Part shown: positions 9,376-61,830 of the stretch, in pieces | How the letters are laid out: every line of letters starts with the position of its first letter | Numbering within the stretch: the first letter of the stretch is position 1 | DNA from: Syntrophales bacterium | GTDB lineage: Bacteria; Desulfobacterota; Syntrophia; Syntrophales; UBA5619 | Reading direction: 5' to 3' | Assembly (NCBI GenBank): GCA_023229765.1 | Contig: JALNYO010000010.1 | Location: forward strand, 40,003-104,002 | Length of the DNA stretch: 64,000 nucleotides | Notes under the pieces: generated by a model | What the model was told of the DNA's origin: nothing | What the model saw: only the letters and a program-made list of their open reading frames with translations | The model's database searches: none | Made by a program: the position numbers and the translations under genes

Positions 9376-9384
9376 AATCTTCCT

Positions 9385-15602: not shown

Positions 15603-15625
15603 AGACTTTATTGATGAACATGAAG

Positions 15626-44361: not shown

Positions 44362-45960
44362 TCAAGTCCTTTTTTTATATTCCGCATCCAACGCCTCTTT
44401 TGCCGGTTTTACATAAAAATCCCGTAGTTTGGGTTTTTCAATCTTACCGGAGGGGTTACGGGGAACAGGGGCAAAAATGATCTTTTCCGGCCATTTGTAT
44501 TTCGCAAAATCACTCTTTTTGCAGAAATCAAGGATCTCGCCTTCGGTTAGCGTTTCGCCTTCTTTGGCCTCGATTACGGCAAAGACAATTTCCACGAGCC
44601 GGACATGGGGGAAGCCCATAACGGCGACGTCCCGCACCTTCGGATGCCTTCTTAGGAAATCCTCGATCTCGACGGGAAAGATGTTTTCTCCCCCCCGGAT
44701 GATGAGATCCTTGGCCCGGTCGGCAAAGAAAATGAACCCCTCCTCATCCTTGTAGGCAAGATCGCCGGTATGGAGCCAGCCGTCAACAATGGTCTTAGCC
44801 GTCATCTCGGGGTTGAAGGCGTATTCCTTCATCAGTCGGGGCCCCTTGAGGAGCAGCTCGCCGATTACTCCCGGCGGAACCTCCTTGTCGTTGCTGTCAA
44901 CAATTCTGATCTCCATAAAGGCGGTAGCCTTGCCGATAGAGCCCGGCTTCTCCAAAAGATGCTCGTCCTGGCAGAGTGCGGTGAACCCTCCCCCCCCTTC
45001 GGTGATTCCATAGGTAATGCCAAACTTGATCTTGGGGAATATTCGCTTGGAATCTTCCAGAAGCACGTGGGGCACCGGCTGGGCGCCCAGCTCTATATGT
45101 TTCAAGGCCGAAAGATCATAGTCTTTAAGGTCAATCTTTCCCGCCTTGATGGCATTAATCAGGTCAGACCAGGTGGGAACGGTATTGAATCCCCCCGTGC
45201 ATTTTTCTTCTGCCAGGGATCTTATGTAATACTCCGGTTTAAACTCCATCGGCATCAGTATTTTGCCGGCGGCGATGTAAGAGGGGAATGAATGGAAGAG
45301 CGAACCGCTGTGATAGAAAGGATGAGGTGTAAGATAAACGCTGTAATAGCCGTCGTTTAAGGAAAGGCCGTTGCCTATCCCTGTAAAGAAAAGGCTTTTA
45401 TGGGTATGGGAGACCGGCTTCGGCGCCCCGGTGGTGCCGGAGGTAAACATCAGCTCCGCCATGTCGTCGTCGGCCGTTTCCACGCAAATCTCTGTGCTGT
45501 CGCCCTTTTCCGCTATCTCCCGATAGGAGATCATCCCCTCCGGGACGTTGTCGCCGAGGCAGATGAAATATTTGCAGTAGTCCATTTCCTTCATGAGGGG
45601 CTGAATTTTCGGCAGGAAAACCTCATCGAAGATGAAGACCCTGCATTTGGCGACGTCGGCGGCATACTTGATATCGCCGCTCGCGAAGCGGAAGTTCAAA
45701 GGGGTCACCGTCGTTCCTGTCTTTAATACCCCGATGTAGCTTGCGTGCCATTCTATCGAGTTCATCATCAGGTGCAGGACGATGTCGCCTTTTTTAATGC
45801 CGCAGTTTTTCAGCAGGTAATTGGCAATCCGGTTGGCCTGCTCGTTGTACTGCCGCCAGGTGAAGCTTCTCCGGAAATTCCGGGAAGGATAACTCTCGAT
45901 AATGAATTCTCTTTCCGGAAATTTACTCGCGTTCAATCCTGAAAATGTTGCAAGATTCAA
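44362..45960 (-). CDS. AMP-forming acyl/aryl-CoA ligase
   Basis: 532 aa with adenylate-forming motifs FTSGTTGAPKPVSHTH, YGITEGGG, GWLHTGDL and the C-terminal PRNPSGKIEK. The context suggests an aromatic acid substrate. Confidence 0.85.
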   Translation of the reverse strand: MNLATFSGLNASKFPEREFIIESYPSRNFRRSFTWRQYNEQANRIANYLLKNCGIKKGDIVLHLMMNSIEWHASYIGVLKTGTTVTPLNFRFASGDIKYAADVAKCRVFIFDEVFLPKIQPLMKEMDYCKYFICLGDNVPEGMISYREIAEKGDSTEICVETADDDMAELMFTSGTTGAPKPVSHTHKSLFFTGIGNGLSLNDGYYSVYLTPHPFYHSGSLFHSFPSYIAAGKILMPMEFKPEYYIRSLAEEKCTGGFNTVPTWSDLINAIKAGKIDLKDYDLSALKHIELGAQPVPHVLLEDSKRIFPKIKFGITYGITEGGGGFTALCQDEHLLEKPGSIGKATAFMEIRIVDSNDKEVPPGVIGELLLKGPRLMKEYAFNPEMTAKTIVDGWLHTGDLAYKDEEGFIFFADRAKDLIIRGGENIFPVEIEDFLRRHPKVRDVAVMGFPHVRLVEIVFAVIEAKEGETLTEGEILDFCKKSDFAKYKWPEKIIFAPVPRNPSGKIEKPKLRDFYVKPAKEALDAEYKKRT

Positions 45961-45982
45961 TGTCGTTCCTCCCTTATCAGCC

Positions 45983-46008
45983 GAGGCGGGTGTGAAACCC
46001 GCCCCTAC
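45983..46008 (-). repeat. REP-like element (GTAG + palindrome), copy 2
   Basis: The minus strand reads GTAGGGGCGGGTTTCACACCCGCCTC, with stem GGCGGG/CCCGCC. It lies in the iorB/CoA-ligase intergenic gap. Confidence 0.45.
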
Positions 46009-46024
46009 ATTTTATAATATGTCG

Positions 46025-46624
46025 TTAATGAATAGCGCCGGAGCTTACGGCATAGCCCAGATCAAAGGCCTTGAGGTTCATTTCCAGAAAGGCCTTCTTT
46101 GTTTTTTCGCTGATCGTCTGTTTCAGCATGTCCGCCGAGACGGGTATCAGCCCGGTTCCGGCCAGAGCGCCCAGCATCACCATGTTAAGACTCAATAAAG
46201 TTCCCGCTTGGCGAGCCAGACTCGAGGCGTCGAAGGCGATGTTTTTCCTAACCTGCGCGCCGATCAGGTTCATCGTTTCCTCAACCGGCGGATAGACGCC
46301 CATGCCGATTGCCACGGTGAAGGGGGGCAAAGGCGCGGTGTTGGAAAGGACTATAGAGTCTTTATTGCATTTTCCAATGGCTCTTAGGGTTTCCAGCGGT
46401 TCAAAACTAACCAGGATATCCGCTTCGCCTGGGGAGATTATATTGCTTTGCGCTTTGCCCAGCAGGATGGAGGATTCTACAACCCCGCCCCTTTGCGCCA
46501 TCCCGTGAATTTCGCTGATCTGCACAGGCACCTCATGCGCCAGGGCCGCTTCTCCCAACAGGTGGGAGGCAAGGAGGTTCCCCTGGCCGCCCACGGCAAC
46601 AATGACAATTCTTATCATATCCAT
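46025..46624 (-). CDS. iorB: Indolepyruvate:ferredoxin oxidoreductase beta subunit-type 2-oxoacid oxidoreductase
   Basis: 199 aa. The sequence IVIVAVGGQGNLLASHLLGEAA...MAQRGG is an IorB/PorC-gamma-like signature. It lies 2 nt after iorA. Confidence 0.8.
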   Translation of the reverse strand: MDMIRIVIVAVGGQGNLLASHLLGEAALAHEVPVQISEIHGMAQRGGVVESSILLGKAQSNIISPGEADILVSFEPLETLRAIGKCNKDSIVLSNTAPLPPFTVAIGMGVYPPVEETMNLIGAQVRKNIAFDASSLARQAGTLLSLNMVMLGALAGTGLIPVSADMLKQTISEKTKKAFLEMNLKAFDLGYAVSSGAIH

Positions 46625-46626
46625 TA

Positions 46627-48477
46627 TTATTCTCCTATCTTATTGAGTCTTATGGCATTTTCCGGGCAGACCTGAACGCAGAGCGTACAGCCGATGCAGC
46701 TTGCTTCATCAATTTCCACCTGCTCCCCTTCCAGATAGAACGCCGGGCAGGCCAGCGTATTGAGGCAAACCCGATGATTCTTGCACTTGCTGTGGTCAAC
46801 AAAGTATGACCGTTTTTCCTGTTTTTTGAAGGTCTTTTCATACATGGGGCATATTTCGCGGGAAATGATTACGGAAAGCCCCGGGAAGGCGATGGCCTCC
46901 TTGATTTGCTCCACCGTCTTTTTGAACTTGAACGGTTTGACGACGGTCACATGCTTGACCCCGATGCCGTTCACCAGGGCTTCGATCGAGACGCTCAGGT
47001 TGTTGAAGCCCATATTTTCCATGGCTGTGCCGGGATCAGGCTGAAAGCCGGTCATCGAGGTTGTCCCGTTGTCCATGATGACGACCGTCTGGTTGTGGCC
47101 GTTATGCAAGGCGTTTATCAGCCCCGGGATTCCCGAATGAAAGAAGGTGGAGTCGCCGATGAAGGAGACAACCTTTCTGCCCGTTGCCGTGCCTATGCCG
47201 GAGCCCATGCCGATGCTGGCCCCCATGCAGATGGACAAATCCGACATGCTTAAGGGGGGAAGCACCCCCAGCGTGTAACAGCCGATATCGTTTGTGTAAA
47301 TCGGTTCGTCTCCGCAGGCCTGACGCATGGCGGCATAGGTTGCCCGATGGGGACAGCCGGCGCACAGGTTGGGGGGGCGCTGAGGAATATTGGGGATGTC
47401 GATGTTTACCGCCTCCTTCGTCGGGCACGCTACCCCAAAGTAGGAAGCGATAACCTTGCGCACCATGCTGGGGCTGAATTCATAGGCCCGGGAAAAAAGC
47501 CCGTAGCCCTTCCCCTTGATCGGGATGACGCTGCCGATTTCCTGGGCTTTAACCTTCACCCCCTCTTCCAGATAGGGTTCCAGCTCTTCAACGACCAGAA
47601 TTTTCTCACATTTGGCGATAAAATCCTTGATCAGCCTGTCCGGCAGCGGATGGGAAAAACCGATGCGCAGGACGCTTACCCGGGATGTCAGCGCGAGATC
47701 CTGCAGGGCGTCGCTCACGTAATTGAAGCTTACGCCGCTGGTGATTATCCCCAACTTGCCCTCGCCGGAAACAAAATTGTACGGGGATTGGTCGGATTCC
47801 CCGGCGGCCTTTTCATAATTGGCAAGCAGGACCTTGTGCAATTTCGTCGAAACGCTCGGAATAAGGGTATTTCTCAAGGGTTCCTTCGGAAAAGAGCCTT
47901 TGGAATTTTTCCCGGCGATCGGTCCCAGCGAAATAACCCCGGTGGAATGGTTAATGCGCGTGGTGGTTCTCAGGATAACCGGTTCCTGCAGCATTTCGGA
48001 AAGGTCAAAGGCATAGCGGGCCATCTCTTTGGCTTCGGCAATGGAGGACGGCTCCAGAACCGGCAGGCCGGAGAACTTGCCGTACATGCGGTTATCCTGT
48101 TCGTTTTGGCTGGAAAACATGGAGGGGTCGTCCGCCGAGACAAGGACAAAGCCGCCCTTCACCCCCTCGTAGGCAAGCGACATCAGGAAATCAGCGGCAA
48201 CATTCACGCCGACATGCTTCATGCTGCACATCGCCCGTACCCCTGCAATGGCCGCCGCAGCGGCAACCTCCATGGCGACCATTTCGTTGATGGCGTATTC
48301 GAAATAAACGCCGCTTTCCTTTTGGATTTTGAAAAAGGTGTCCCCGATCTCCGAAGAGGGGGTTCCGGGGTAGCAGGTTGCAACCGCCACGCCCGCCTCG
48401 ATTGCGCCCCGGACAATGGCTTCATTGCCGAGCATCAGCATTTTTTTCTCTGGACTATCCAGCAATAACTCGTTCAT
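46627..48477 (-). CDS. iorA: Indolepyruvate:ferredoxin oxidoreductase alpha subunit-type (TPP, 2x4Fe-4S)
   Basis: 616 aa. The N-terminal LMLGNEAIVRGAIEAGV, the TPP motif GDSTFFHSG and the C-terminal CxxCxxCxxxCP pair (CIGCTLCVQVCP) are all present. Confidence 0.85.
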   Translation of the reverse strand: MNELLLDSPEKKMLMLGNEAIVRGAIEAGVAVATCYPGTPSSEIGDTFFKIQKESGVYFEYAINEMVAMEVAAAAAIAGVRAMCSMKHVGVNVAADFLMSLAYEGVKGGFVLVSADDPSMFSSQNEQDNRMYGKFSGLPVLEPSSIAEAKEMARYAFDLSEMLQEPVILRTTTRINHSTGVISLGPIAGKNSKGSFPKEPLRNTLIPSVSTKLHKVLLANYEKAAGESDQSPYNFVSGEGKLGIITSGVSFNYVSDALQDLALTSRVSVLRIGFSHPLPDRLIKDFIAKCEKILVVEELEPYLEEGVKVKAQEIGSVIPIKGKGYGLFSRAYEFSPSMVRKVIASYFGVACPTKEAVNIDIPNIPQRPPNLCAGCPHRATYAAMRQACGDEPIYTNDIGCYTLGVLPPLSMSDLSICMGASIGMGSGIGTATGRKVVSFIGDSTFFHSGIPGLINALHNGHNQTVVIMDNGTTSMTGFQPDPGTAMENMGFNNLSVSIEALVNGIGVKHVTVVKPFKFKKTVEQIKEAIAFPGLSVIISREICPMYEKTFKKQEKRSYFVDHSKCKNHRVCLNTLACPAFYLEGEQVEIDEASCIGCTLCVQVCPENAIRLNKIGE

Positions 48478-48502
48478 GTTAGCTTTCTCCTTTTTTTATA
48501 TT

Positions 48503-49279
48503 TTAAGCAACGTTCTCTTCGGCTATGATGGCCGCTCCATAAGCCGCCATGATTTGAGGTTCGAGGGGGACGATAAATTCATGCCCCGCTATCTCCTGTA
48601 TGGCCTTGATTAGACCCATATCTTTAGCCCCGCCCCCGATCAATGCGCAATCCTGCTCGATGCCGATCCGTTCCGCAAGGGTATAGAGCTGCGCCGCCAG
48701 GGCCAGATGGATGCCGGCCAGCAGGTCTTCTTTGGCCAGGCCCTCGGCAATTCTCGAGACAGCTTCTGTTTCTGCAAAGACGGCGCACTGCGTATTAAAT
48801 CTGACGGGGTTTTGCGAGGTAAGCGACAAAGGGCCTATTTCCTCAATCTTTACCTGTAAAACCCGCGCAATCACCTGCAGAATTCGGGCGCTTCCCCCCG
48901 CGCATTTGCCGCTCAACAAAAAAGCGACTGTTTTTCCGCTTTGGTCAATCCGGGAGACCTTGCTGGAAAGGTCTCCCACGTCAACAATCGTTCGCACCGA
49001 CGGATGAAAACGGGAAACCGCCCGTCCCTGGCATAAAATATCAGACGAAGTCTTGTCTGCGCAAGCTACATTGACTGCCCCGCCGCCCGTGGCGACTATG
49101 CAGGCGATATCGCCGCGGGAGAGCTCCGCCTTTTTCAGCGCGGCGTCAAGAACAACTTCTGCCGCCATTTTGTAGTTTCCACCCGAGGGGATTATGTGCC
49201 GGGAAAGCAGCTTGCCGTTGGCAACTATAACCGCCTTTGAAGAACCTGCCCCGATATCAATGCCGGCTACGTGCTGCAT
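48503..49279 (-). CDS. BcrA/BcrD/HgdC-family ATPase subunit (BzdQ-like) of an ATP-dependent aryl-CoA reductase
   Basis: 258 aa acetate/sugar-kinase-fold ATPase (GIDIGAGSSKAVIV...GGGAKD). It is the fourth gene in an N-O-P-Q-like order. Confidence 0.75.
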   Translation of the reverse strand: MQHVAGIDIGAGSSKAVIVANGKLLSRHIIPSGGNYKMAAEVVLDAALKKAELSRGDIACIVATGGGAVNVACADKTSSDILCQGRAVSRFHPSVRTIVDVGDLSSKVSRIDQSGKTVAFLLSGKCAGGSARILQVIARVLQVKIEEIGPLSLTSQNPVRFNTQCAVFAETEAVSRIAEGLAKEDLLAGIHLALAAQLYTLAERIGIEQDCALIGGGAKDMGLIKAIQEIAGHEFIVPLEPQIMAAYGAAIIAEENVA

Positions 49280-49303
49280 CCGTCCGGTTTTCCTTCCCCA
49301 ATG

Positions 49304-50164
49304 CTAATTAAAAAACGTTACTTCACCCCAATTGCGGGGTCTTTTCGGCAGTTCCCCGGCAGGCGTCGCCTGGAATTTATCCTTTCCCAGCAGCGCCGCG
49401 CCGATGGCCCCGGTTACCAGCGGCTCCGGGGGAACCAGAACCGCATATCCCAACCTTTCCGCGAGCACCTTCACCAGATGCCCGTTTTTGGCGCCGCCGC
49501 CGGTAACAACAACCTCTTTTTCCACAGCAAGCCGGCTGACTGTACGGAGAATGCGCTCGGCGACCGATTGGTGGATGCCGGCGACCAGATCGCCCAAGAG
49601 CGCTCCTTCGGATAAGCGGGACGCCACCTCCTGGGCGGCAAAAACGGTGCATAAGCTGCTTATCCGTGCCGGGTTTTTGCTTTCCTCGGCAGTTTTGCTC
49701 AGCGCGACCAGCTCTATCCCCAGCGTTCCGGCAATAACCTCCAGAAATCTGCCGGTGCCGGCCGCGCACTTGTCATTCATCACAAAATCGACTGGTTTGC
49801 CCTTGGCGTCTATCTTGATCCCCTTGACATCCTGCCCGCCGATATCGATTATCGTTCTTGCCTGCGGAAAGATACTGTTTACGCCCCGGGCGTGGCAGGA
49901 GATTTCCGTTATCTGCTTGTCCGCGAAAGGCACGTTGATTCTGCCATAGCCGGTAGCGACCAGATAGCTTATTTCCTCAAAGGAAAGGCCGGCCTTCTTC
50001 AAGGCTTCCTGCATTACTTTACCCGCCAGTTTCCTTTGTTCCGGGCCGGTTGGGCCGATCACGGAACATACTATTCCCCCATTAACTATTACTGCCTTGG
50101 TCATGGTAGAGCCGATATCAATGCCGGCGAAATATTTTGAAGATGAAGCCTTGCTTTCTGTCAC
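49304..50164 (-). CDS. Second BcrA/BcrD-family ATPase subunit (BzdP-like)
   Basis: 286 aa paralog of the previous gene (GIDIGSTMTKAVIV...DKCAAGTGRFLE...TGGGAKN). Having two distinct ATPase genes argues for a heterodimeric benzoyl-CoA-reductase-type module rather than a single dehydratase activator. Confidence 0.75.
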   Translation of the reverse strand: MTESKASSSKYFAGIDIGSTMTKAVIVNGGIVCSVIGPTGPEQRKLAGKVMQEALKKAGLSFEEISYLVATGYGRINVPFADKQITEISCHARGVNSIFPQARTIIDIGGQDVKGIKIDAKGKPVDFVMNDKCAAGTGRFLEVIAGTLGIELVALSKTAEESKNPARISSLCTVFAAQEVASRLSEGALLGDLVAGIHQSVAERILRTVSRLAVEKEVVVTGGGAKNGHLVKVLAERLGYAVLVPPEPLVTGAIGAALLGKDKFQATPAGELPKRPRNWGEVTFFN

Positions 50165-51540
50165 GACGCCTCTTTATGGGCCTTCAGCGATTCCAGCGTT
50201 TCGATGAAGGCGTCTATCTTGCTCCTGGTTTCCACCTCGGAGTAGGAGCTCATATCGACGATGTCGCTTTCCAGGATGAGCGAGGGGTTTTCCCTGTTCA
50301 CCGTCTTACCGAGGCTCAAAACCGGGATCGGCCGGTAAATCTTTTTCAATTGGTTCAACTGCCAGATCAGCCCCAGATGCCAGGTTCGGCAGGAAAAAGC
50401 CTCGTGCATGACAATGCCGTCAATCTGATAATCTTCAATATACTGGATTAAACGTTCTACATCCGGCTCCGATCCGGGCCGTTTTTTTGCCTTGTCATAC
50501 CAGTACGTCCAGTAGCGGAGCCATCGCCAGGCGAGTCGCTCAACGGGGTCGCTGGTTCTGGGGATGTTCAGCCGGTCGATGGGCTCAATCATGCGGTATG
50601 TCGTCTCTGCCGGGAAGACCGCCCCTTTGCTGTTGAAATAATTAAAATCGGTAAGCGCAAACCAGGAGGGGAGCCCTCCGCCCCAGAGCAGCCGGTATTT
50701 TTCATCCTCGATGACGCCCTCTTTACGGGCAATTCTTTCCTCCAGCTCCCGGTGCAGATCCAAATAAAAATCATACGCCTCCTGGGTTCCCATCATGAAC
50801 ACCATGGGGACCATCGTGTTCATTGCGTCGCCCGTGTCCATCGGGGTCGGCACAGCCCTTCTTAATTCATAGGTCTCCCAGATCAAATCCCAGGTGCGTT
50901 CGCTCAAGGCAACAATTTCAGCGAGCCGGTCATAGTCCATCTTCCGGCCGGTCTGCTTCTCCAGAAAACTGATCAGTCCGTGCAGTTCCTCCATAATATG
51001 CTTTATATAATAATCGGCGACATCGGCCACTTCGACATTATCCTCGTACAGCGGCCACGGCAGGTCAACATTATAAACGGGGACGTCCGGCATAAACTGC
51101 TGTGCGGCCTGGTACCATTTGTTTCTCGGGTCGCACAGGATCTGGCCGCTCGAAAGCATCATGTCGGGTCTTGTCTGTCCGCCCCAGGGGGCATTGGGAG
51201 GCATGCCGCCGAGCTCTTCGCGCATATGGTCAAAGCCGAGCCCGCACAGCGCATACGTGCATAAAGAGCGGGAAAGTCCCAAAGACTCCGCCCTTTCCAG
51301 GAACCTGTTGACGTCGCGCTTTACGCCGCAGATGCCGGCATAATTCTCCGTCCAGACGGGGACTATGTCCATTGCCCGGATTATCTCATCGTAACTGGAA
51401 CTTATAAAGGTGTAGGCAGACTTTTTTCCTTCCTGCCGGGCCTTCAGGGCGCCGCCGATGGTCGCCTTTACCATGCCGCCGATTCTGCCGGCGGCCGCGG
51501 TTGCTGTCCTTCTTTTCTTTTTCTCCGCTACTTCAGCCAT
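50161..51540 (-). CDS. Benzoyl-CoA reductase/2-hydroxyacyl-CoA dehydratase family large subunit (BzdO/BcrB-like)
   Basis: 459 aa with family-typical segments (DIVPVWTENYAG, SRSLCTYA, ESDIVDMSSYSE...IDAFIETL). Confidence 0.75.
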   Translation of the reverse strand: MAEVAEKKKRRTATAAAGRIGGMVKATIGGALKARQEGKKSAYTFISSSYDEIIRAMDIVPVWTENYAGICGVKRDVNRFLERAESLGLSRSLCTYALCGLGFDHMREELGGMPPNAPWGGQTRPDMMLSSGQILCDPRNKWYQAAQQFMPDVPVYNVDLPWPLYEDNVEVADVADYYIKHIMEELHGLISFLEKQTGRKMDYDRLAEIVALSERTWDLIWETYELRRAVPTPMDTGDAMNTMVPMVFMMGTQEAYDFYLDLHRELEERIARKEGVIEDEKYRLLWGGGLPSWFALTDFNYFNSKGAVFPAETTYRMIEPIDRLNIPRTSDPVERLAWRWLRYWTYWYDKAKKRPGSEPDVERLIQYIEDYQIDGIVMHEAFSCRTWHLGLIWQLNQLKKIYRPIPVLSLGKTVNRENPSLILESDIVDMSSYSEVETRSKIDAFIETLESLKAHKEAS

Positions 51541-51570
51541 TTGTCAGCGCCTCCCCAAAGTGAATCGGCA

Positions 51571-52740
51571 TTACTCAATTACCTCGAGAAACGCCTGAAT
51601 CCTTGTTCTCAGGCTGCCGATGGTACCTGCGGAATACTCATCTTCAATATAGAGAACCGGCACATTCAGCGATTCAAGGTAGGCCTTTCTTGCCGGAATC
51701 TCAAACCCGAAGGGATCGCAGTATTTGTAGATGTAGAGGATTACCCCGTCCACGGCGTAATCCCGGATCAAGGCGCCCATATCGCCGAATCTCGACTCCA
51801 GATCGTCGGCAAAGGTCTCTCCCTCTTTTCGCTCTTTGCAGGTCCGCGGGCAATTTATCCTTTTCAGATAACGATCAGCAATGCCGTCCAGAGGATCAGC
51901 CGTGATCGGCGTTTGCGGCCAGAATTCCCTTGTCCCGATGCAGAGATTGTCCACAACGACATTGGCCCCGCTCTCTTCTATGAGACTCATGAAGGCGGGA
52001 TTGTCTATCGTACTGCCGAAGACCATTATCCGGGGCAGCTTTTTGATGCCGTTTTCCTTTCTCCCGCTGATTTCCTCATGCACTTCAATAAGCAATTGAT
52101 TCGCTTCCTGAACCGGCAAGCTCAAACATGCCAGCAGAATCTTAATCATTTCCGAGCCGGCAAGCAGGGGCGGATCCTGCCTTCTCAACTCGTACAGGGC
52201 CCTTACCTTTCGTCTGTTCTCGTTGTACAGCTCAACATAATGGGCCAGGTCAGAGTCGGATATTTTTTTATTCGCAAATTGTTCCAGGCTTTTGCGGAAA
52301 TTTTCGATATCCGCCCTGAAAAAATCCAGAGAGGAGCCATTGGCGGTATGGGGGACATTAACAAAATGGGAGTAGGGGAAGTCGAGCACATACCGCCAGA
52401 CGCTGTAGGTTCTGGCGATGCTGTCGCAACTGTGGGGGATTGCCAAACCGTCGCAAAAGCTGTACCGGCCCTTCACGGAAACGTCAAAGCAGCTTCTTGC
52501 GTAGGGGCAGGCGATTGTCTCCAGGTTAACGTCGCCTTTGGTAATCGGCTCATTGACGTCGCCCCTTATCCGGAGCGGGATGAAGCCCGCGGCCGCGATG
52601 ATCTCCAAGGGAACGAGGGCGCAGACGTAGGCAATAACCTTTTGCCCCTGCTCCTTCAGCTCTTTTACCCTGACACCATAGTTCCAGTATAATCCCTCCG
52701 CTTTGGATAAGCCATAGCCGGCGATCTTCTCTTCTGACAT
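51571..52740 (-). CDS. Benzoyl-CoA reductase/2-hydroxyacyl-CoA dehydratase family subunit (BzdN/BcrC-like)
   Basis: 389 aa with the sequences VIAYVCALVPLEIIAAAGFIPLRIRG...CPYARSCFD...HSCDSI. It is the first gene of the four-gene operon. Confidence 0.75.
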   Translation of the reverse strand: MSEEKIAGYGLSKAEGLYWNYGVRVKELKEQGQKVIAYVCALVPLEIIAAAGFIPLRIRGDVNEPITKGDVNLETIACPYARSCFDVSVKGRYSFCDGLAIPHSCDSIARTYSVWRYVLDFPYSHFVNVPHTANGSSLDFFRADIENFRKSLEQFANKKISDSDLAHYVELYNENRRKVRALYELRRQDPPLLAGSEMIKILLACLSLPVQEANQLLIEVHEEISGRKENGIKKLPRIMVFGSTIDNPAFMSLIEESGANVVVDNLCIGTREFWPQTPITADPLDGIADRYLKRINCPRTCKERKEGETFADDLESRFGDMGALIRDYAVDGVILYIYKYCDPFGFEIPARKAYLESLNVPVLYIEDEYSAGTIGSLRTRIQAFLEVIE

Positions 52741-52766
52741 AGGTTACCTTTTCCAGTCGCTTCGCT

Positions 52767-52775
52767 TTATGGATA
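52767..52775 (+). promoter_or_regulatory. TTATGGATA motif, site 1 (27-35 nt upstream of the Bzd-like operon start codon)
   Basis: Exact 9-mer shared with sites at 52976, 53131 and 60136. Confidence 0.4.
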
Positions 52776-52956
52776 TGAAGCTTCGCTTGATTACTAATAA
52801 CATTCTCAATATTGGACAACGAATGATGAGAACATGCATAATTCAGTAAACAATTTCACGTAAATTCCGAGTAAGTGGAGAGGCGTGTTCTCAGACGAAA
52901 TCGCTAATGCTTTCTCCCGGGCAGGTGCTGAATGCATGATCATTTTATAGCCATAG

Positions 52957-52984
52957 ATAAGTTTAATGCTGGGACTTATGGATA
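52957..52984 (+). promoter_or_regulatory. ATAAGT-N11-ACTTATGGATA, motif site 2 with dyad symmetry
   Basis: A perfect 6-bp inverted repeat is separated by 11 nt and carries the shared CTTATGGATA. Confidence 0.4.
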
Positions 52985-53119
52985 AATTTTCCTTCCTTGT
53001 CAAGAGCTTTTTTCTTTCAGGATGTTGACTCCACTGACCCCAATGACAGGAATTTGAACGCGCATCATCAGCGCATCTGTTACGGCCTGCCGGACGTCCA
53101 GTTCGGGTGCGCATATTTC

Positions 53120-53139
53120 ATAAGTTTATCTTATGGATA
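53120..53139 (+). promoter_or_regulatory. ATAA-N7-TTATGGATA (LysR T-N11-A type box), motif site 3
   Basis: ATAAGTTTATCTTATGGATA has the same architecture and spacing as the site at 60125-60144. It lies just upstream of a TTGACA box (53157). Confidence 0.45.
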
Positions 53140-53460
53140 TTATAAAAATAATAGCGTTGACAAGGGGATTTTCTCTATAATATAAGGCCAGCCATAGAGG
53201 GATATCCTCAAATCTCAAGAACTGCCACTTTACAACAACAGAATATGATTTTCCGCGTATGCTTTTTACGGGCTATAAAGCATGCGCGGCCTTTTCACAA
53301 TGGAGGATGTTGATAAGTATTTCAGCATGCTGATGATTGGAAATTACAATTATCTGACCATTAGTCGAGGAAGGAGGGGGCAGACAGGTCAATTATGCTG
53401 GCCGCGTAGCGTGGAATTCAGGAGACCGGAACAATTTTTTATAAAAAGGGGGGTTTTATT

Positions 53461-55305
53461 ATGGCAGAAGAAAAAAAGTTTCCTTATGCAGAAGAAGTAA
53501 AGTTCCCGCCGGCAATGGCAGGCTGGGAGGAGATGTACCCGCCGCATCGTTTATTCAGCAGTGATAGAGATGATTGGGAAAAGAGGCATTTCTGGTATCA
53601 GGATAAGATCCATGATCCGGAAGCGCTGTATCCGCTCGATGATATCTTCAATGAGGCATGGCAGATATCTCTTTCCCAATATACCACGAGGGTTTTCTGT
53701 ATCCCTCCTGCCCAGGGGGTGCAGCAGAGGATGTTAGGCTGCTATATGTATATATCGGCTGTTGAACCGCCGCCGCCAGAGGTTATCGGAGAAAAGGCGG
53801 AAGTTTTTGGGAAAAGGCTGCCCTACATCCTGCAGAATTACGATATGCTATGGGAGAAATGGCTTGAGAAGTTCAAGGCTCTCGGAAGGGATATGCAAAA
53901 TGTAAAGGTGCCGGAAGAACTTCCAAAGTATGTGCCGGATGAGGATATTTTCCCTGTGACAAAAGGCTATACCCCGGCGTATGAAGTGATAGCGGCGTTC
54001 AATACATTAGTAAACCAGATATTTTTAGGATGGCAGTACCACTTTGAGTATCTGAACCTCGCTTACCTTGCCTATCTGATGTTTGTGGATACAGCCAAAA
54101 AATTATTCCCGGGTATAAAAGAGGGCGCGGTTATGAAAATGGTTGCTGGCATTGATGCAGCCATGTTCCGCCCTGATGAAGAGTTGTGCAGATTAAGCAG
54201 ATTGGCTGTGGCGCAGCGGCCTGTTGGCGACATTCTTAAAAAGAATATATCGGCTGACGAGAAGATGAAAGAATTGCAGAGCACACACGAGGGCCGGGCA
54301 TGGCTGGAGGAGCTTGAGAAGATAAAGGATCCATGGTTCTTTGTATCCTGTGCAAGCGGCTGGTTTCACTATGAAGGTAGTTGGATAACCAAACTGGACG
54401 TGCCTTTCAGCTATATGCAGAGCTACGTGGAAAGGCTTGAGAAAGGGGAAAAGATCGAGCGGTCGTTCGCGGCCATCGAAAAAGAGAGGGAAGGCATTGT
54501 TGAAGAGTACAAAAAGCTCATAATGGCTGAGGATGATAGAAAGTCTTTTGAAGATGCCTATAATGCGGTCAGAACAATATATCAGTTCACCGAAAACCAC
54601 ATCTTCTGGGTAGAGAACTGGTTCCATACGATATGGTTCGATAAGGTAAGGAAGTTTGGAAATCTGCTGGTAAAGTATAATGTATTGAAGAAGACGGACG
54701 ATATCTTTCTCTTCAATAGATTTGAAGTGCCAATGCTGCTGGAGGATATGGTGACCGCCTGGGCATTGGGCGTGGGCGCCCCTACGAGAAGTAAATACTG
54801 GATGGAGAAGGTAGAGAAGAGAGAAAAGATACTTGCGGCTGCAAGAGAATGGGAGCCTGTCCCCGGACTGGGAATGCCGCCTGAAGAGGTGTCAGAGCCA
54901 TTTACCGTGATGCTTTGGGGTATAACCAGCGACAAGGTTGAAGAGTGGCTGAAGGGCGCCGATTTATCTGCAAACGAAATAAAAGGATTTGCATCATCGT
55001 CAGGGGTTGTTGAAGGACCGGCAAGGGTAATCAAACTTGCCCAAAATATTGTTGAACTCAAAGCCGGCGAGATTCTGGTTTGTCCATCCACCAACCCATC
55101 ATGGGCGCCGGTCTTTACAAAGATAAAGGCTGCCGTGACCGACATTGGCGGACTTACATGTCACGCTTCCATAGTCGCGCGCGAGTATGGCTTGCCCTCT
55201 GTAACGGGCACTGGAGTTGCAACCTCAATCATTAAGACAGGCGACATATTAAGGGTTGATGGCGGTAATGGGATTGTCACAATAGTGAAAAGGGCAGGAG
55301 CTTAA
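53461..55305 (+). CDS. Phenylphosphate-synthase alpha-subunit-like protein (PEP-utilizing phosphohistidine swivel domain at C-terminus)
   Basis: 614 aa. The segments GWEEMYPPHRLF...FWYQDKIHDPEALYPLDDIFNEAWQISLSQYTTRVFCIPPAQG...CWQYHFEYLNL are colinear with my recollection of Thauera aromatica PpsA. The C-terminal GGLTCHASIVAREYGLPSVTG carries the phospho-His. Confidence 0.8.
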   Translation: MAEEKKFPYAEEVKFPPAMAGWEEMYPPHRLFSSDRDDWEKRHFWYQDKIHDPEALYPLDDIFNEAWQISLSQYTTRVFCIPPAQGVQQRMLGCYMYISAVEPPPPEVIGEKAEVFGKRLPYILQNYDMLWEKWLEKFKALGRDMQNVKVPEELPKYVPDEDIFPVTKGYTPAYEVIAAFNTLVNQIFLGWQYHFEYLNLAYLAYLMFVDTAKKLFPGIKEGAVMKMVAGIDAAMFRPDEELCRLSRLAVAQRPVGDILKKNISADEKMKELQSTHEGRAWLEELEKIKDPWFFVSCASGWFHYEGSWITKLDVPFSYMQSYVERLEKGEKIERSFAAIEKEREGIVEEYKKLIMAEDDRKSFEDAYNAVRTIYQFTENHIFWVENWFHTIWFDKVRKFGNLLVKYNVLKKTDDIFLFNRFEVPMLLEDMVTAWALGVGAPTRSKYWMEKVEKREKILAAAREWEPVPGLGMPPEEVSEPFTVMLWGITSDKVEEWLKGADLSANEIKGFASSSGVVEGPARVIKLAQNIVELKAGEILVCPSTNPSWAPVFTKIKAAVTDIGGLTCHASIVAREYGLPSVTGTGVATSIIKTGDILRVDGGNGIVTIVKRAGA

Positions 55306-55306
55306 A

Positions 55307-55353
55307 GATGCACTTGTTGTCTGGGGGTACAAGAACAGTACCCCCAGTGCATC
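55307..55353 (+). other. Extended 16-bp hairpin immediately after the PpsA-like stop codon
   Basis: GATGCAC/GTGCATC (7 bp) and TGGGGGTAC/GTACCCCCA (9 bp) pair around the loop AAGAACA, with an 8-nt left bulge. No clear U-tract follows. Confidence 0.5.
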
Positions 55354-55478
55354 ATCAGAGGGTTTTGTTAATAGTGCCGGAAGGAAGGGATATTATTAAT
55401 CAGGAAGAATTATTGTCACTTATTGCGTGGTATTGCAGCAGAAAGTTCCAGCAAAAATAAAAAATAGGGGGGTGCATT

Positions 55479-56582: not shown

Positions 56583-56640
56583 AGGGTAAGGAAGCTTGCG
56601 GATAATTAAAGGGGCTTGCGCCCTGAAGTCAAAGCAACCC

Positions 56641-56675
56641 GGAAGCGCGGTCGCCGTGCGACCGTGCTTCCCTAC
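56641..56675 (-). repeat. REP-like element (GTAG + palindrome), copy 3
   Basis: The minus strand reads GTAGGGAAGCACGGTCGCACGGCGACCGCGCTTCC, a 14-bp stem (one G-U) with a 3-nt loop. It lies between the membrane gene and the PpsB-like gene. Confidence 0.45.
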
Positions 56676-56698
56676 TGTATTCACCGACATAAGGGGGT

Positions 56699-57778: not shown

Positions 57779-57813
57779 ATTTGGAGCGTAGGAACAGAAG
57801 CGCAGGAGCGGCG

Positions 57814-60144: not shown

Positions 60145-60353
60145 GCATAAAAAAATTGAAATTGACAATTTTTTTTAAATCGGTAATCTAACAGTCACAT
60201 GGAAAAAACTGAATAAGCGGCAAACGTCAGCACCAATGTATGCTTCCCTGTAACGATTATTTGCAGCCCAAATTAATGATGTCGGTCCCGGCGACAAAAG
60301 GTTTTGTTCGCATATTGGCAGATTGAACCCATTTAAAGGAGGTATTGATTGCG

Positions 60354-61757: not shown

Positions 61758-61830
61758 TTCATGGCGTTAAGTTAAACGCATGCCCCCTCCCGTGGGAAGA
61801 AGTAATATCCCCCGGCGAGGGGCCTGATTT

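What the first reader, a model, noticed from the sequence alone, without database searches (positions are those of the whole stretch)
44362..52740. Bzd-type (class I-like, ATP-dependent) aryl-CoA reductase with IorAB and a CoA ligase, in a genome that also encodes class II Bam
Four genes follow the order and sizes of bzdNOPQ: 389, 459, 286 and 258 aa. They comprise two large dehydratase/reductase-family subunits and two different BcrA/D-type ATPases. The two ATPases argue for a benzoyl-CoA-reductase-like heterotetramer rather than a 2-hydroxyacyl-CoA dehydratase with a single activator.

Downstream on the same strand are a two-subunit 2-oxoacid:ferredoxin oxidoreductase (IorAB type) and an AMP-forming ligase. 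The oxidoreductase is a plausible generator of the low-potential ferredoxin donor, analogous to KGOR in Thauera.

Obligate anaerobes normally rely on the ATP-independent Bam enzyme present at 7-17.6 kb, so a second, ATP-consuming reductase suggests a substrate that Bam cannot handle. No HcrABC-type 4-hydroxybenzoyl-CoA reductase is visible next to the carboxylation genes. One hypothesis is therefore reductive removal of a para substituent (OH or NH2), or dearomatisation of a substituted benzoyl-CoA.
Basis: partly seen in the sequence, partly recalled or inferred. Interest (0 to 1): 0.6.

Follow-up and report, generated by a model that had tools for sequence, protein, structure and literature searches.

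The report
Uncharacterised ATP-driven BCR/HAD-type radical enzyme operon
A Syntrophus-like anaerobe that already has the ATP-independent benzoyl-CoA reductase also carries a seven-gene operon for an ATP-driven iron-sulfur radical enzyme that is built like a Bzd-type reductase but belongs to a separate, widespread and untested clade, so neither its substrate nor the usual 'class I benzoyl-CoA reductase' label is established.

Summary
Seven co-directional genes lie on the minus strand at 44362-52740: two HGD-D large subunits (389 and 459 aa), two BcrAD-type ATPases (286 and 258 aa), IorA, IorB and an AMP-forming ligase. BamB-I lies at 7.0-17.6 kb. Phenylphosphate-synthase-like and carboxylase-like genes start divergently at 53461.

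The 'Bzd-type' label is only partly right. The 389-aa subunit keeps the six cysteines that bind the double-cubane [8Fe-9S] cluster in BzdN and DCCP. The catalytic 459-aa subunit is equally distant (24-27% identity) from BzdO, MbdO and HadB. It replaces BzdO His131 and Gln274 and misses every curated BCR or HAD cut-off.

The four genes form a conserved unit found only in metagenome-assembled genomes (MAGs) of Syntrophus, Desulfobacteraceae, Desulfatiglandales, Dehalococcoidia and Bathyarchaeia. One ATPase is canonical and one is degenerate. In other lineages the unit sits beside 2-hydroxyacid dehydrogenases, CoA-transferases or ligases, and IorAB. No recurrent dch/had/oah-type family turned up among its neighbours.

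In this window a 9-mer is shared between the operon's upstream region and the pps/ubiD promoter regions. This suggests one regulon.

Best reading (about 0.4): an ATP-driven aryl-CoA reductase acting on a phenol-derived hydroxyaryl-CoA. Main rival (about 0.3): an aryllactyl-CoA-type dehydratase.

The parts
51571..52740 (-). N-like large subunit (389 aa), predicted carrier of a double-cubane [8Fe-9S] cluster
   Evidence: HGD-D match, E 2.6e-83. The best solved-structure hit is BzdN 8s02_B, 9.7e-50. Six Cys (C40, C78, C105, C267, C297, C341) are conserved in 81-82 of 82 family members and align with the Cys of BzdN and DCCP. Identity is 31% to BzdN and 29% to DCCP.
50161..51540 (-). O-like catalytic subunit (459 aa), with a predicted 3-Cys [4Fe-4S] cluster and an acyl-CoA site
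   Evidence: HGD-D match, E 5.1e-52. C94, C136 and C384 align with BzdO C95, C128 and C380. E65, Y96 and Y315 align with BzdO E65, Y97 and Y298. R139, L290, R385 and W387 replace BzdO H131, Q274, E381 and L383. Identity is 27% to BzdO, 24% to MbdO and 27% to HadB.
49304..50164 (-). Q-type ATPase (286 aa) with canonical motifs
   Evidence: BcrAD_BadFG match, E 9.8e-62. Identity is 49% to HadI and 45% to MbdQ. The motifs DIGST, TGYGR, DIGGQD and MNDKCAAGTGRF and both cluster Cys are present.
48503..49279 (-). P-type ATPase (258 aa) with degenerate nucleotide motifs; it keeps both cluster cysteines
   Evidence: BcrAD_BadFG match, E 4.8e-43. Identity to Q is 40%. GGQD is replaced by GDLS and MNDK by LSGK. 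The degeneracy is conserved in 51 P-type orthologues.
46627..48477 (-). IorA, indolepyruvate:ferredoxin oxidoreductase alpha subunit, with a C-terminal 4Fe-4S ferredoxin-type (Fer4) domain
   Evidence: TIGR03336: 756.7 bits against a cut-off of 650.9. Pfam POR_N, TPP_enzyme_C and Fer4.
46025..46624 (-). IorB
   Evidence: Pfam POR, E 1.9e-36. IOR_beta models score 189-201 bits, just under their cut-offs of 206-238.
44362..45960 (-). AMP-forming acyl-CoA ligase of the FadD/4-coumarate-ligase type (532 aa)
   Evidence: AMP-binding plus AMP-binding_C. The best solved structures are FadD13, FadD5, 4-coumarate-CoA ligase and feruloyl-CoA synthetase. No benzoate-CoA ligase is among the best 60.
52741..53460 (.). 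Divergent control region between the N-like gene and the ppsA-like gene. It holds three copies of TTATGGATA (52767, 52976, 53131) and a LysR-type box, ATAAGTTTATCTTAT (53120-53134).
   Evidence: The 9-mer occurs 5 times in the window against 0.28 expected. The box is unique in the window. The architecture is conserved upstream of N in L012, L010 and L013.
53461..59034 (+). Four genes: ppsA-like (614 aa), an unknown 367-aa ORF, ppsB-like (359 aa) and UPF0261 (417 aa)
   Evidence: Pfam PEP-utilizers, PPDK_N and UPF0261. NCBIfam NF006153 scores 824.6 against a cut-off of 578. The 367-aa ORF has no hit.
59036..60004 (-). LysR-type regulator, candidate binder of the shared operator
   Evidence: HTH_1 plus LysR_substrate. 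An operator-like site at 60124-60144 lies in its divergent region with ubiD.
60345..63299 (+). UbiD-family carboxylase (470 aa) and a second UPF0261 gene (442 aa)
   Evidence: TIGR02724 phenylphosphate carboxylase beta: 512.6 bits against a cut-off of 468.95.
7046..17575 (-). Context only: a class II benzoyl-CoA reductase gene set (BamB-I-like)
   Evidence: Domain series AFOR, Fer4, CCG, HdrA-like, FlpD, 2Fe-2S thioredoxin-like, Nuo51, Fer2.

Best explanation
The operon encodes an ATP-driven iron-sulfur radical enzyme of the benzoyl-CoA-reductase / 2-hydroxyacyl-CoA-dehydratase superfamily. Its architecture is that of a Bzd-type reductase, but it belongs to a separate, uncharacterised clade.

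Proposed mechanism:
1. The Q/P heterodimer has one canonical and one degenerate ATPase, which share a bridging [4Fe-4S] cluster. It takes an electron from reduced ferredoxin, or directly from the ferredoxin-type domain of the co-encoded IorA. ATP hydrolysis then lowers the electron's potential.
2. Electrons accumulate on the double-cubane cluster of the N subunit.
3. They pass to the three-cysteine [4Fe-4S] cluster of the O subunit.
4. There an aromatic acyl-CoA, made by the co-encoded ligase, is reduced through a ketyl-type radical.

The operon's upstream region shares a cis-element with the phenylphosphate synthase and carboxylase promoters. The substrate in this organism is therefore most likely a hydroxy-aryl-CoA derived from a phenolic compound. 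The reaction would be either removal of the hydroxyl group or ring reduction, and the product would enter the Bam pathway.

Shown: the genes, the cluster-ligand signatures, the conserved thioester-binding tyrosines, the ATPase asymmetry and the shared cis-element. Inferred: the electron path, the role of IorAB, the two-electron stoichiometry and the substrate.
For: - Six conserved (81-82 of 82) Cys in N align with the [8Fe-9S] ligands of BzdN and DCCP. HadC and MbdN lack two or three of them. In BzdN this cluster is proposed to store two or more electrons (PMC11971306).
- O keeps the three cluster Cys, the catalytic Glu and both Tyr that hydrogen-bond the thioester in BzdO.
- Two orthologous ATPase types are conserved across phyla, 60 Q-type and 51 P-type. 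At least 24 of 42 loci with enough flank carry both. This is a trait of known class I reductases, not of known dehydratases.
- BzdN and BzdO are the best solved-structure matches.
- The 9-mer TTATGGATA occurs three times upstream of the operon and once in the LysR|ubiD region, against 0.28 expected per window.
- Near-identical operator-plus-TTGACA architecture stands before ppsA and ubiD. A conserved copy overlies the predicted N promoter in L012 and L010.
- Synteny with pps/ubiD/LysR is conserved in the 74-99% subclade. In L010 the neighbours are UbiX and LpdD.
- Precedent: an ATP-dependent tetrahydronaphthoyl-CoA reductase in the strict anaerobes N47 and NaphS2.
Against: - The catalytic subunit is no closer to BzdO than to HadB (NCBIfam 95.1 against 94.8 bits).
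- BzdO His131 and Gln274 are not conserved.
- There is no ferredoxin gene in the operon. Gaps are at most 64 nt, and the 102-aa upstream ORF is not ferredoxin-like.
- No recurrent dch/had/oah-type family appeared among the neighbour families.
- Only a few, mostly conservative substitutions separate this subclade from relatives that lack pps/ubiD neighbours. A single family-wide function is therefore likely.
- Elsewhere that function is linked to 2-hydroxyacid dehydrogenases, CoA-transferases and IorAB.
- The ligase resembles fatty-acyl and phenylpropanoid ligases, not benzoate ligases.
- Stoichiometric ATP use is costly for an energy-limited anaerobe that already pays for phenol phosphorylation and CoA ligation.
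- The 9-mer over the -10 region of the N promoter could mean repression rather than co-induction.
Confidence: 0.4

Rival explanations
1. The enzyme is a dehydratase-type member working on a 2-oxoacid-derived CoA ester.

An aromatic 2-oxo acid or 2-hydroxy acid (arylpyruvate or aryllactate) is the node.
- IorAB interconverts arylpyruvate and arylacetyl-CoA.
- The ligase, or a CoA-transferase in other phyla, makes (R)-aryllactyl-CoA.
- N/O removes water from it by the ketyl-radical route, giving arylacrylyl-CoA.
- ATP is needed only to prime one recycled electron.
- Beta-oxidation of the product would give benzoyl-CoA for Bam.

On this reading the enzyme feeds Bam rather than duplicating it.
For: - In 12 loci, mostly Dehalococcoidia, the operon is CoA-transferase III, N, O, Q, P, GlcD-like, FeS-CCG protein. 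IorBA follows in 6 of them.
- The GlcD-like protein scores 500.8 bits on the glcD model. Its partner resembles LdhH, GlpC and GlcF.
- IorA there passes TIGR03336 (784.7 bits).
- Five Desulfobacteraceae or Desulfatiglandales loci carry a fused GlcD-FeS protein (a weak, far sub-threshold match to the YdiJ model), a thiolase and a ligase.
- L037 has ligase, N, O, Q, P and an NAD-dependent D-2-hydroxyacid dehydrogenase.
- Together these are three different dehydrogenase architectures in four gene arrangements.
- The ligase is of the FadD/4CL type.
- There is no ferredoxin gene.
- Catalytic ATP use fits energy-limited anaerobes.
- Among the 110 nearest 50%-identity clusters, the HadB model gives the best score (1.2e-92, against 2.3e-66 for BzdO).
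Against: - No 2-hydroxyacid dehydrogenase or CoA-transferase is encoded in this window or in its 74-99% relatives.
- Known dehydratases have a single homodimeric activator and no double cubane. Here both BCR-like traits are conserved.
- GlcD-type enzymes normally work oxidatively. They could simply be a peripheral aryllactate-to-arylpyruvate step upstream of a true reductase, as proposed for Desulfococcus multivorans (PMC5109826).
- The shared cis-element ties the operon to the phenol genes.
Confidence: 0.3
2. It is an ordinary ATP-dependent benzoyl-CoA reductase, a deep-branching class I enzyme, kept alongside Bam. This matches how metagenome studies annotate these genes in Dehalococcoidia, Bathyarchaeota and Deltaproteobacteria. 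The neighbouring genes would be peripheral routes from phenol, phenyllactate or phenylpyruvate that converge on benzoyl-CoA.
For: - The architecture evidence is as for the best explanation.
- High conservation of O across phyla, 64-81% identity, is typical of a central enzyme.
- The literature reports bcr-type genes in such MAGs together with dch, had and oah, although whether those genes belong to this clade was not checked (PMC6472368).
- Desulfotomaculum gibsoniae also has both classes (PMC4148979).
Against: - This genome has a full Bam set 35 kb away, so a second, costlier enzyme for the same substrate has no evident use.
- All BCR equivalog cut-offs are missed.
- His131 and Gln274 of BzdO are not kept.
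- There is no ferredoxin gene, and no recurrent lower-pathway gene family was seen next to any of the 80 loci.
Confidence: 0.12
3. It catalyses a reaction not yet described for the superfamily. One example is ATP-driven two-electron reductive dehydroxylation of a 2-hydroxyacyl-CoA straight to the saturated acyl-CoA. Another is reduction of a non-CoA small molecule, as DCCP does.
For: - Reductase-type architecture (double cubane, two ATPases) is combined with dehydratase-type neighbours.
- No acyl-CoA dehydrogenase or Etf family recurs among the neighbour families.
- O has family-specific invariant residues not seen in BzdO, MbdO or HadB: C71, C99, D137, R139 and H388.
- The DCCP model is the best NCBIfam hit of N, at 211 bits.
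Against: - There is no direct evidence.
- The ATP cost has no obvious benefit.
- O keeps the thioester-binding tyrosines, and a ligase or CoA-transferase usually lies nearby. Both argue for a CoA ester and against a DCCP-like role.
- O lacks two of the three distal-cluster Cys.
Confidence: 0.08

Closest known systems
BzdNOPQ, Bzd-type class I benzoyl-CoA reductase of Aromatoleum sp. CIB (PDB 8S02; PMC11971306)
   Same: - The gene order N-O followed by two ATPase genes, with similar large-subunit sizes.
- The six-Cys [8Fe-9S] signature in N.
- The three Cys, Glu65, Tyr97 and Tyr298 in O.
- It is the best solved-structure hit for both large subunits.
   Different: - Identity is only 31% for N and 27% for O.
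- His131 is replaced by Arg, Gln274 by Leu, Glu381 by Arg, Leu383 by Trp and Trp46 by Ser or Cys.
- Both ATPases resemble the Q/HadI type, and one is degenerate.
- There are no ferredoxin or dch/had/oah genes.
- The hosts are strict anaerobes.
- The true Bzd clade is at least 85% identical within itself.
MbdONQP, 3-methylbenzoyl-CoA reductase (PDB 9G87/9GAI)
   Same: It has four subunits with two different ATPases. The S-C-R-T motif after the third cluster Cys of O is shared. The Q subunit is 45% identical to MbdQ.
   Different: MbdN lacks three of the six Cys, so it has a single cluster. O is 24% identical.
HadBC plus HadI, (R)-2-hydroxyisocaproyl-CoA dehydratase and its activator (PDB 3O3M, 4EHT)
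   Same: - O is 27% identical to HadB, as close as to BzdO, and shares the E-N motif.
- Q is 49% identical to HadI, its best solved hit.
- Relatives have dehydratase-pathway neighbours.
   Different: - HadC lacks the distal-cluster Cys.
- HadI is a single homodimeric activator.
- No 2-hydroxyacid dehydrogenase or CoA-transferase is present in this window.
DCCP, double-cubane cluster protein, and its reductase (PDB 6ENO, 7YYL)
   Same: N shares all six Cys, and its best NCBIfam hit is the double_cubane model (211 bits).
   Different: DCCP is a homodimer with a double cubane in each subunit and a homodimeric ATPase. Here O has only the three-Cys site. The score is below the cut-off of 350.
[quoted passage not shown]
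   Same: It is a bzdNOPQ-like enzyme in strict anaerobes, used for a substituted benzoyl-CoA analogue. NaphS2 at least also has a class II BamB homologue (NPH7171; PMC5109826).
   Different: The thn operon carries a ferredoxin gene and beta-oxidation genes. Its sequences could not be retrieved here, so the relationship is untested. No named Thn protein appeared among hits of 60% identity or more.
HcrABC/PcmRST, molybdenum 4-hydroxybenzoyl-CoA reductase (functional analogue only)
   Same: It would catalyse the step that the phenol-carboxylation context calls for. Hcr-like proteins do this job in Desulfatiglans anilini (PMC7500099).
   Different: It is an unrelated protein family that uses no ATP. 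It is not seen in this window, and its presence elsewhere in the genome is unknown.

Membership tests
Class I benzoyl-CoA reductase, Bzd type (BzdNOPQ) | N subunit with six Cys ligands for a double-cubane [8Fe-9S] cluster | tested here: met
   C40, C78, C105, C267, C297 and C341 are conserved in 81-82 of 82 family members and align with the Cys of BzdN and DCCP.
Class I benzoyl-CoA reductase, Bzd type (BzdNOPQ) | O subunit with three Cys cluster ligands, the catalytic Glu65 and the thioester-binding Tyr97 and Tyr298 | tested here: met
   C94, C136, C384, E65, Y96 and Y315 are invariant in 75 sequences.
Class I benzoyl-CoA reductase, Bzd type (BzdNOPQ) | O subunit His131 next to the Fe-bound water, Gln274 at the thioester and Trp46 at the ring | tested here: not met
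   His131 is an invariant Arg139 and Gln274 an invariant Leu290. Trp46 is Ser here and Cys in 65 of 75 sequences. His131 is also absent from MbdO, so it is not universal in class I.
Class I benzoyl-CoA reductase, Bzd type (BzdNOPQ) | Scores above the curated equivalog cut-offs (TIGR03190 bzdN, TIGR03191 bzdO, TIGR03192 bzdQ) | tested here: not met
   180.8 against 453.8, 95.1 against 448.6, and 189.2 and 137.8 against 380.2 bits.
Class I benzoyl-CoA reductase, Bzd type (BzdNOPQ) | Two different ATPase subunits encoded with the catalytic pair | tested here: met
   Q and P types are 40% identical to each other and both are conserved across the family.
Class I benzoyl-CoA reductase, Bzd type (BzdNOPQ) | Dedicated ferredoxin and lower-pathway genes (dch, had, oah) in the cluster | tested here: not met
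   Ferredoxin:
- Operon gaps are at most 64 nt.
- The upstream 102-aa ORF is not ferredoxin-like.

Lower pathway:
- The window genes flanking the operon carry other domains.
- No recurrent gene family of this kind appeared among the neighbours in 80 loci.
- A single occurrence would not have shown in the top-25 summary.
Class I benzoyl-CoA reductase, Bzd type (BzdNOPQ) | MgATP-dependent two-electron reduction of benzoyl-CoA to the 1,5-dienoyl-CoA | not testable with these tools
   This needs an enzyme assay.
2-Hydroxyacyl-CoA dehydratase with activator (HadBC/HadI, HgdAB/HgdC) | Alpha subunit with a three-Cys [4Fe-4S] cluster and a conserved Glu | tested here: met
   The feature is shared with BCRs, so it does not discriminate.
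2-Hydroxyacyl-CoA dehydratase with activator (HadBC/HadI, HgdAB/HgdC) | Beta subunit with a single [4Fe-4S]/[4Fe-5S] cluster (no distal-cluster Cys) | tested here: not met
   The window N subunit has all six Cys. HadC lacks those at columns 40 and 267.
2-Hydroxyacyl-CoA dehydratase with activator (HadBC/HadI, HgdAB/HgdC) | One homodimeric activator ATPase | tested here: not met
   There are two different ATPase genes here and in at least 24 of 42 loci. About 11-12 loci of the 61-67% clade show only the Q type.
2-Hydroxyacyl-CoA dehydratase with activator (HadBC/HadI, HgdAB/HgdC) | Encoded with an (R)-2-hydroxyacid dehydrogenase and a CoA-transferase | tested here: inconclusive
   Absent from this window and from its 74-99% relatives. 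Present in Dehalococcoidia, Desulfobacteraceae and L037 relatives.
2-Hydroxyacyl-CoA dehydratase with activator (HadBC/HadI, HgdAB/HgdC) | Scores above the HadB and HadC equivalog cut-offs | tested here: not met
   94.8 against 750 and 146.8 against 700 bits.
Double-cubane cluster protein (DCCP) | Homodimer with a six-Cys double cubane in each subunit; NF040772 cut-off of 350 | tested here: not met
   N scores 211 bits. O lacks two of the three distal Cys positions.
Indolepyruvate:ferredoxin oxidoreductase (IorAB) | Alpha and beta subunits above the curated cut-offs | tested here: met
   IorA scores 756.7 against 650.9. IorB scores 189-201 against 206-238, slightly under. Substrate specificity was not tested.
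Phenylphosphate synthase/carboxylase system (context) | UbiD-family subunit above the TIGR02724 cut-off, with PpsA-like and PpsB-like genes | tested here: met
   512.6 against 468.95 bits, with PEP-utilizers and PPDK_N proteins adjacent. No PpsC, gamma or delta subunits were recognised.

The most novel reading that the evidence does not exclude
Two novel readings remain open. The probability given covers either of them being true.

(a) The enzyme is an iron-sulfur-only, ATP-driven reductive dehydroxylase of a hydroxy-aryl-CoA such as 4-hydroxybenzoyl-CoA. It would replace the molybdenum enzyme HcrABC. Mechanistically it would be a hybrid of the two known branches of the superfamily: ketyl-assisted loss of OH as in the dehydratases, and two-electron input as in the reductases.

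(b) The whole clade, routinely annotated as class I benzoyl-CoA reductase in Dehalococcoidia, Bathyarchaeia and sulfate-reducer MAGs, does not dearomatise benzoyl-CoA at all. Instead it works in aryl-2-oxo acid and 2-hydroxy acid metabolism. That would undercut many metagenomic claims of aromatic-ring degradation in sediments.
Probability: 0.3. Interest if true: 0.8.

Novelty: new variant of a known kind. Interest (0 to 1): 0.55.

Why it matters
Genes like these are the basis for many metagenomic claims that sediment Dehalococcoidia, Bathyarchaeia and Deltaproteobacteria degrade aromatic rings with an ATP-consuming class I reductase. One such study calls the finding surprising for energy-limited anaerobes (PMC6472368).

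This analysis shows that at least this large clade is not orthologous to any characterised enzyme. It has its own invariant active-site residues and an asymmetric ATPase pair. Its neighbours in several phyla point to 2-oxo acid and 2-hydroxy acid chemistry rather than to the benzoyl-CoA lower pathway.

Settling its substrate would have one of two outcomes. It could reveal a new reaction in the superfamily, for instance a molybdenum-free route from phenolics to benzoyl-CoA. Or it could correct a widespread annotation.

In this organism the substrate would also explain why a Bam-containing anaerobe keeps a second, costlier radical enzyme beside its phenol-carboxylation genes.

Tried and rejected
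- **Cultured carriers.** I looked for a cultured organism carrying the clade, so as to link it to physiology. The 120 best protein hits carried no name from a cultured organism.
- **Reference sequences.** ThnBCDE, BcrBC, BadDE, HgdAB, FldBC and LcdAB sequences could not be obtained.
- **4-Aminobenzoyl-CoA deamination.** Desulfatiglans anilini induces Hcr-like molybdenum enzymes for this step, not a BCR-like enzyme.
- **Missing phenylacetate enzyme.** I considered that the enzyme is the missing step of phenylacetate catabolism in sulfate reducers. Desulfococcus multivorans degrades phenylacetate and has no bcr homologues.
- **GlcD-like neighbours.** They could have been p-cresol-methylhydroxylase or vanillyl-alcohol-oxidase-type enzymes. 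This was rejected: they score 500.8 bits on the glcD model and their partner is LdhH/GlpC/GlcF-like.
- **Second sub-cluster in O.** Rejected. Only one of the three distal positions is Cys, and not in this window.
- **The 102-aa ORF at 52806-53114.** It is not a ferredoxin.
- **Subclade-specific active-site changes.** These would show specialisation to the phenol pathway. Only six substitutions in O and three in N were found, mostly conservative.
- **Operator patterns.** Longer patterns for the operator were mis-specified and found nothing useful. Direct inspection replaced them.
- **Literature.** A search for the MbdONQP structure paper found nothing.
- **Pooled Pfam scan.** A scan of 119 neighbour families showed no dominant family and mainly housekeeping diversity.
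- **Structure prediction.** Not run. It would not separate the hypotheses without coordinates or docking.

Full report
**1. The observation**

| Coordinates | Length | Start codon |
|---|---|---|
| 51571-52740 | 389 aa | ATG |
| 50161-51540 | 459 aa | ATG |
| 49304-50164 | 286 aa | GTG (overlaps the previous stop by 4 nt) |
| 48503-49279 | 258 aa | ATG |
| 46627-48477 | 616 aa | ATG |
| 46025-46624 | 199 aa | ATG |
| 44362-45960 | 532 aa | TTG |

- Gaps are at most 64 nt.
- A 99%-identical public contig from a Syntrophales MAG (GCA_054635285.1) carries the same seven called genes.
- Pfam gives HGD-D for the two large proteins and BcrAD_BadFG for the next two. It gives POR_N/TPP_enzyme_C/Fer4 and POR for the IorAB pair, and AMP-binding for the last.
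- IorA passes the NCBIfam equivalog cut-off.

The surrounding claims also hold.
- A BamB-I-like set occupies 7046-17575.
- On the other side of a 720-bp divergent region lie a PpsA-like gene, an unknown 367-aa ORF, a PpsB-like gene, UPF0261, a LysR regulator, a UbiD and a second UPF0261. The UbiD is above the cut-off for phenylphosphate carboxylase beta.

**2. What kind of enzyme it is**

None of the curated models for BCR subunits, HadBC or DCCP reaches its cut-off.
- For the 389-aa protein the scores are DCCP 211, bzdN 181, bcrC 153 and HadC 147 bits.
- For the 459-aa protein they are HadB 94.8, bzdO 95.1 and bcrB 89.6 bits.
- Against solved structures the best hits are BzdN (9.7e-50) and BzdO (5.9e-21). 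They are followed by DCCP and HadC for N, and MbdO and HadB for O.

I used the BzdNO structure paper (PMC11971306) as the reference. I aligned 82 N-type and 75 O-type family members with the solved proteins.

*N subunit.* Six Cys (C40, C78, C105, C267, C297, C341) are conserved in 81-82 of 82 sequences. They fall in the same columns as the Cys of BzdN and DCCP. HadC and MbdN lack two or three of them. N therefore has the double-cubane signature.

*O subunit.*
- It keeps the three cluster Cys, Glu65 and the two tyrosines that hold the thioester oxygen in BzdO.
- BzdO His131 is an invariant Arg. Gln274 is an invariant Leu. Glu381 is Arg, as in MbdO. Leu383 is Trp. Trp46 is Ser here and Cys in most relatives.
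- C71, C99, D137 and H388 are additional family invariants.

*Identities.* O is 27% identical to BzdO, 24% to MbdO and 27% to HadB. N is 31% identical to BzdN, 29% to DCCP, 24% to HadC and 25% to MbdN.

*The true BzdO clade* is tight, at 85% identity or more.

The enzyme therefore has Bzd-like architecture but is not a Bzd orthologue. It is a separate deep branch.

An exhaustive search of 1.84 billion cluster representatives found 161 hits at E <= 1e-30 and 634 at E <= 1e-10.
- The best 150 score 128-496 bits, far better than the 58-78 bits this subunit scores against its best solved-structure hits (BzdO, MbdO, HadB).
- They share the E-N, C71, C-D-x-R and S-C-R motifs.
- None of 110 full-length neighbours reaches any equivalog cut-off.

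**3. The ATPases**

- The 286-aa protein is canonical. It has DIGST, TGYGR, DIGGQD and MNDKCAAGTGRF. It is 49% identical to HadI and 45% to MbdQ.
- The 258-aa protein keeps both cysteines for the bridging cluster. Its nucleotide motifs are degenerate: GGQD becomes GDLS and MNDK becomes LSGK.
- The split into a canonical Q type (60 sequences) and a degenerate P type (51 sequences) is conserved over the whole family.
- At least 24 of 42 loci with enough flanking sequence carry both types. A clade at 61-67% identity shows only Q.

**4. Distribution and neighbours**

*Distribution.*
- The N protein has more than 100 hits at 60% identity or above in metagenomes.
- The genome scan gave 80 loci, all MAGs. 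They come from Syntrophus, Desulfobacteraceae, Desulfatiglandales, other Thermodesulfobacteriota, Dehalococcoidia and one Bathyarchaeia.
- O is 64-81% identical across these phyla.

*Contexts.*
- (a) The window type appears only in the Syntrophus subclade at 74-99% identity: IorAB and ligase in the operon, with pps/ubiD/LysR/UPF0261 divergent (L001, L003, L007, L012). L010 has UbiX and LpdD instead.
- (b) 12 loci, mostly Dehalococcoidia, show CoA-transferase III, N, O, Q, P, a GlcD-like FAD enzyme and a CCG iron-sulfur protein.
  - IorBA lies on the opposite strand in six of them. TRAP or MFS transporters and thiolases lie nearby.
  - The GlcD-like protein scores 500.8 bits on glcD. IorA passes its cut-off.
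- (c) Five Desulfobacteraceae or Desulfatiglandales loci have a fused GlcD-FeS protein, a thiolase and a ligase.
- (d) L037 has ligase, N, O, Q, P, an NAD-dependent D-2-hydroxyacid dehydrogenase and a glycyl-radical enzyme.
- (e) Many loci have unrelated housekeeping neighbours.

No recurrent enoyl-CoA hydratase, acyl-CoA dehydrogenase or ferredoxin family appears among the neighbours. Only a few, mostly conservative substitutions distinguish the Syntrophus subclade from the rest. This suggests one function for the whole family.

**5. The link to the phenol genes in this window**

- The 9-mer TTATGGATA occurs five times in 64 kb, against 0.28 expected. Three copies lie in the N|ppsA region and one in the LysR|ubiD region.
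- The copies at 53131 and 60136 sit in nearly identical stretches of about 45 nt.
  - Each has a LysR-type T-N11-A palindrome. ATAAGTTTATCTTAT is unique in the window.
  - Each is followed by an A-rich spacer and TTGACA, pointing at ppsA and ubiD.
- The copy at 52976 is followed by TTGACA on the minus strand, so it overlies the -10 region of a predicted N-operon promoter. It is conserved upstream of N in L012 and L010.
- This is evidence for a common regulator. The sign of regulation at the N promoter is unknown.

**6. Weighing the readings**

*For a two-electron reductase:*
- the double cubane, proposed as an electron store in BzdN;
- the conserved heterodimeric ATPase;
- the best structural hits;
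- the shared cis-element and the synteny with the phenol genes;
- the N47/NaphS2 precedent.

*For a dehydratase-type role on a 2-oxoacid-derived CoA ester:*
- three different 2-hydroxyacid dehydrogenase architectures in four gene arrangements next to relatives;
- CoA-transferases and bona fide IorAB in two phyla;
- a FadD/4CL-type ligase rather than a benzoate ligase;
- no ferredoxin gene;
- the energy budget of such organisms.

The dehydrogenase and IorAB neighbours can also be read another way. They could be an oxidative peripheral route, aryllactate to arylpyruvate to arylacetyl-CoA, as proposed for Desulfococcus multivorans. That weakens them as proof of dehydratase function.

A dedicated Fd-generating 2-oxoacid oxidoreductase seems unnecessary in strict anaerobes. 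This inference from general knowledge favours a metabolic role for IorAB rather than a purely electron-donating one.

My estimates:

| Reading | Probability |
|---|---|
| ATP-driven aryl-CoA reductase tied to the phenol route | about 0.40 |
| Dehydratase-type enzyme | about 0.30 |
| Plain benzoyl-CoA reductase | about 0.12 |
| Another, new reaction | about 0.08 |

**7. Comparison with the literature, and novelty**

- Class-I-like genes in strict anaerobes have been reported before. Examples are Desulfotomaculum gibsoniae, N47 and NaphS2, and Dehalococcoidia and Bathyarchaeota MAGs. The bare observation is therefore not new.
- What is new here:
  - the clade is not orthologous to any characterised enzyme;
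  - it has its own invariant active-site set and an asymmetric ATPase pair;
  - its neighbours are at odds with the standard benzoyl-CoA annotation;
  - in Syntrophus-like genomes it forms an operon with IorAB and a ligase and shares a cis-element with the phenylphosphate genes.
- I class it as a new variant of a known kind. It is of moderate to good interest because its substrate is directly testable and the answer bears on many metagenomic inferences.

Noticed in passing
window 52767-52775, 52976-52984, 53120-53139, 60124-60144: The 9-mer TTATGGATA is over-represented, with 5 copies against 0.28 expected. Four copies lie in the two divergent promoter regions. Two of these sit in near-identical LysR-box-plus-TTGACA architectures before ppsA and ubiD. 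One overlies the predicted -10 region of the N-operon promoter and is conserved in L012 and L010.
   Followed up: partly
window 48503-49279 (-), and 51 orthologues in the loci: The second ATPase has degenerate nucleotide-binding motifs (GGQD becomes GDLS, MNDK becomes LSGK) but keeps both cluster cysteines. This asymmetry is conserved across phyla. It may mean one catalytic ATP site per heterodimer.
   Followed up: partly
window 55479-56582 (+): A 367-aa ORF lies between the ppsA-like and ppsB-like genes. It has no Pfam or NCBIfam match but is called as a gene on the public contig. PpsC of Thauera is much smaller (from my own knowledge, not checked here).
   Followed up: partly
window 57781-59034 and 61971-63299 (+); also L003, L007, L012: Two UPF0261 genes are conserved within the pps/ubiD cluster of the Syntrophus subclade. 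L003 and L007 also have an LMWPc phosphatase-like gene. Their role in aryl phosphate carboxylation is unknown.
   Followed up: no
L004-L006, L009, L015-L030 (relatives at 61-67% identity): A large clade carries only N-O-Q (or N-O alone) in a conserved housekeeping neighbourhood: SLT_2, DeoC, BacA, RtcB, archease. No catabolic genes lie nearby, which is hard to reconcile with a peripheral catabolic role.
   Followed up: partly
L037 8101-18302: A Desulfobacteraceae MAG has ligase, N, O, Q, P, a D-2-hydroxyacid dehydrogenase and a glycyl-radical enzyme. The glycyl-radical enzyme is nearest to the dehydratase/eliminase types. Probable activase genes and a second glycyl-radical enzyme lie nearby.
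   Followed up: partly
window 29547-36422 (+): A cluster of multihaem c-type cytochromes (MtrC/MtrF-like, c7, c3) with a cytochrome b and di-haem c proteins. It suggests respiratory or extracellular electron transfer, which would ease the ATP budget of this organism.
   Followed up: no
window 2320-6888: A sigma-54 activator with PAS domains (2320-4113, -) and a molybdopterin oxidoreductase (4840-6888, +) lie directly beside the bam genes.
   Followed up: no
window 51541-52692 (+), 47347-48468 (+), 39446-40879 (-): Long antisense ORFs of 373-477 aa mirror real genes on the opposite strand. The public contig's gene calls include neither of the first two, and the third lies opposite the gatB gene, so all three look like shadow ORFs. 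The same effect caused a few missed ATPase calls in my simple ORF caller for L043, L044 and L047.
   Followed up: yes
proteins P0241-P0390: The O subunit belongs to a very large radiation of HGD-D proteins. That radiation shares the E-N, C71, C-D-x-R and S-C-R motifs. None of 110 clusters reaches any curated equivalog cut-off, so most of this part of the superfamily is functionally unassigned.
   Followed up: partly
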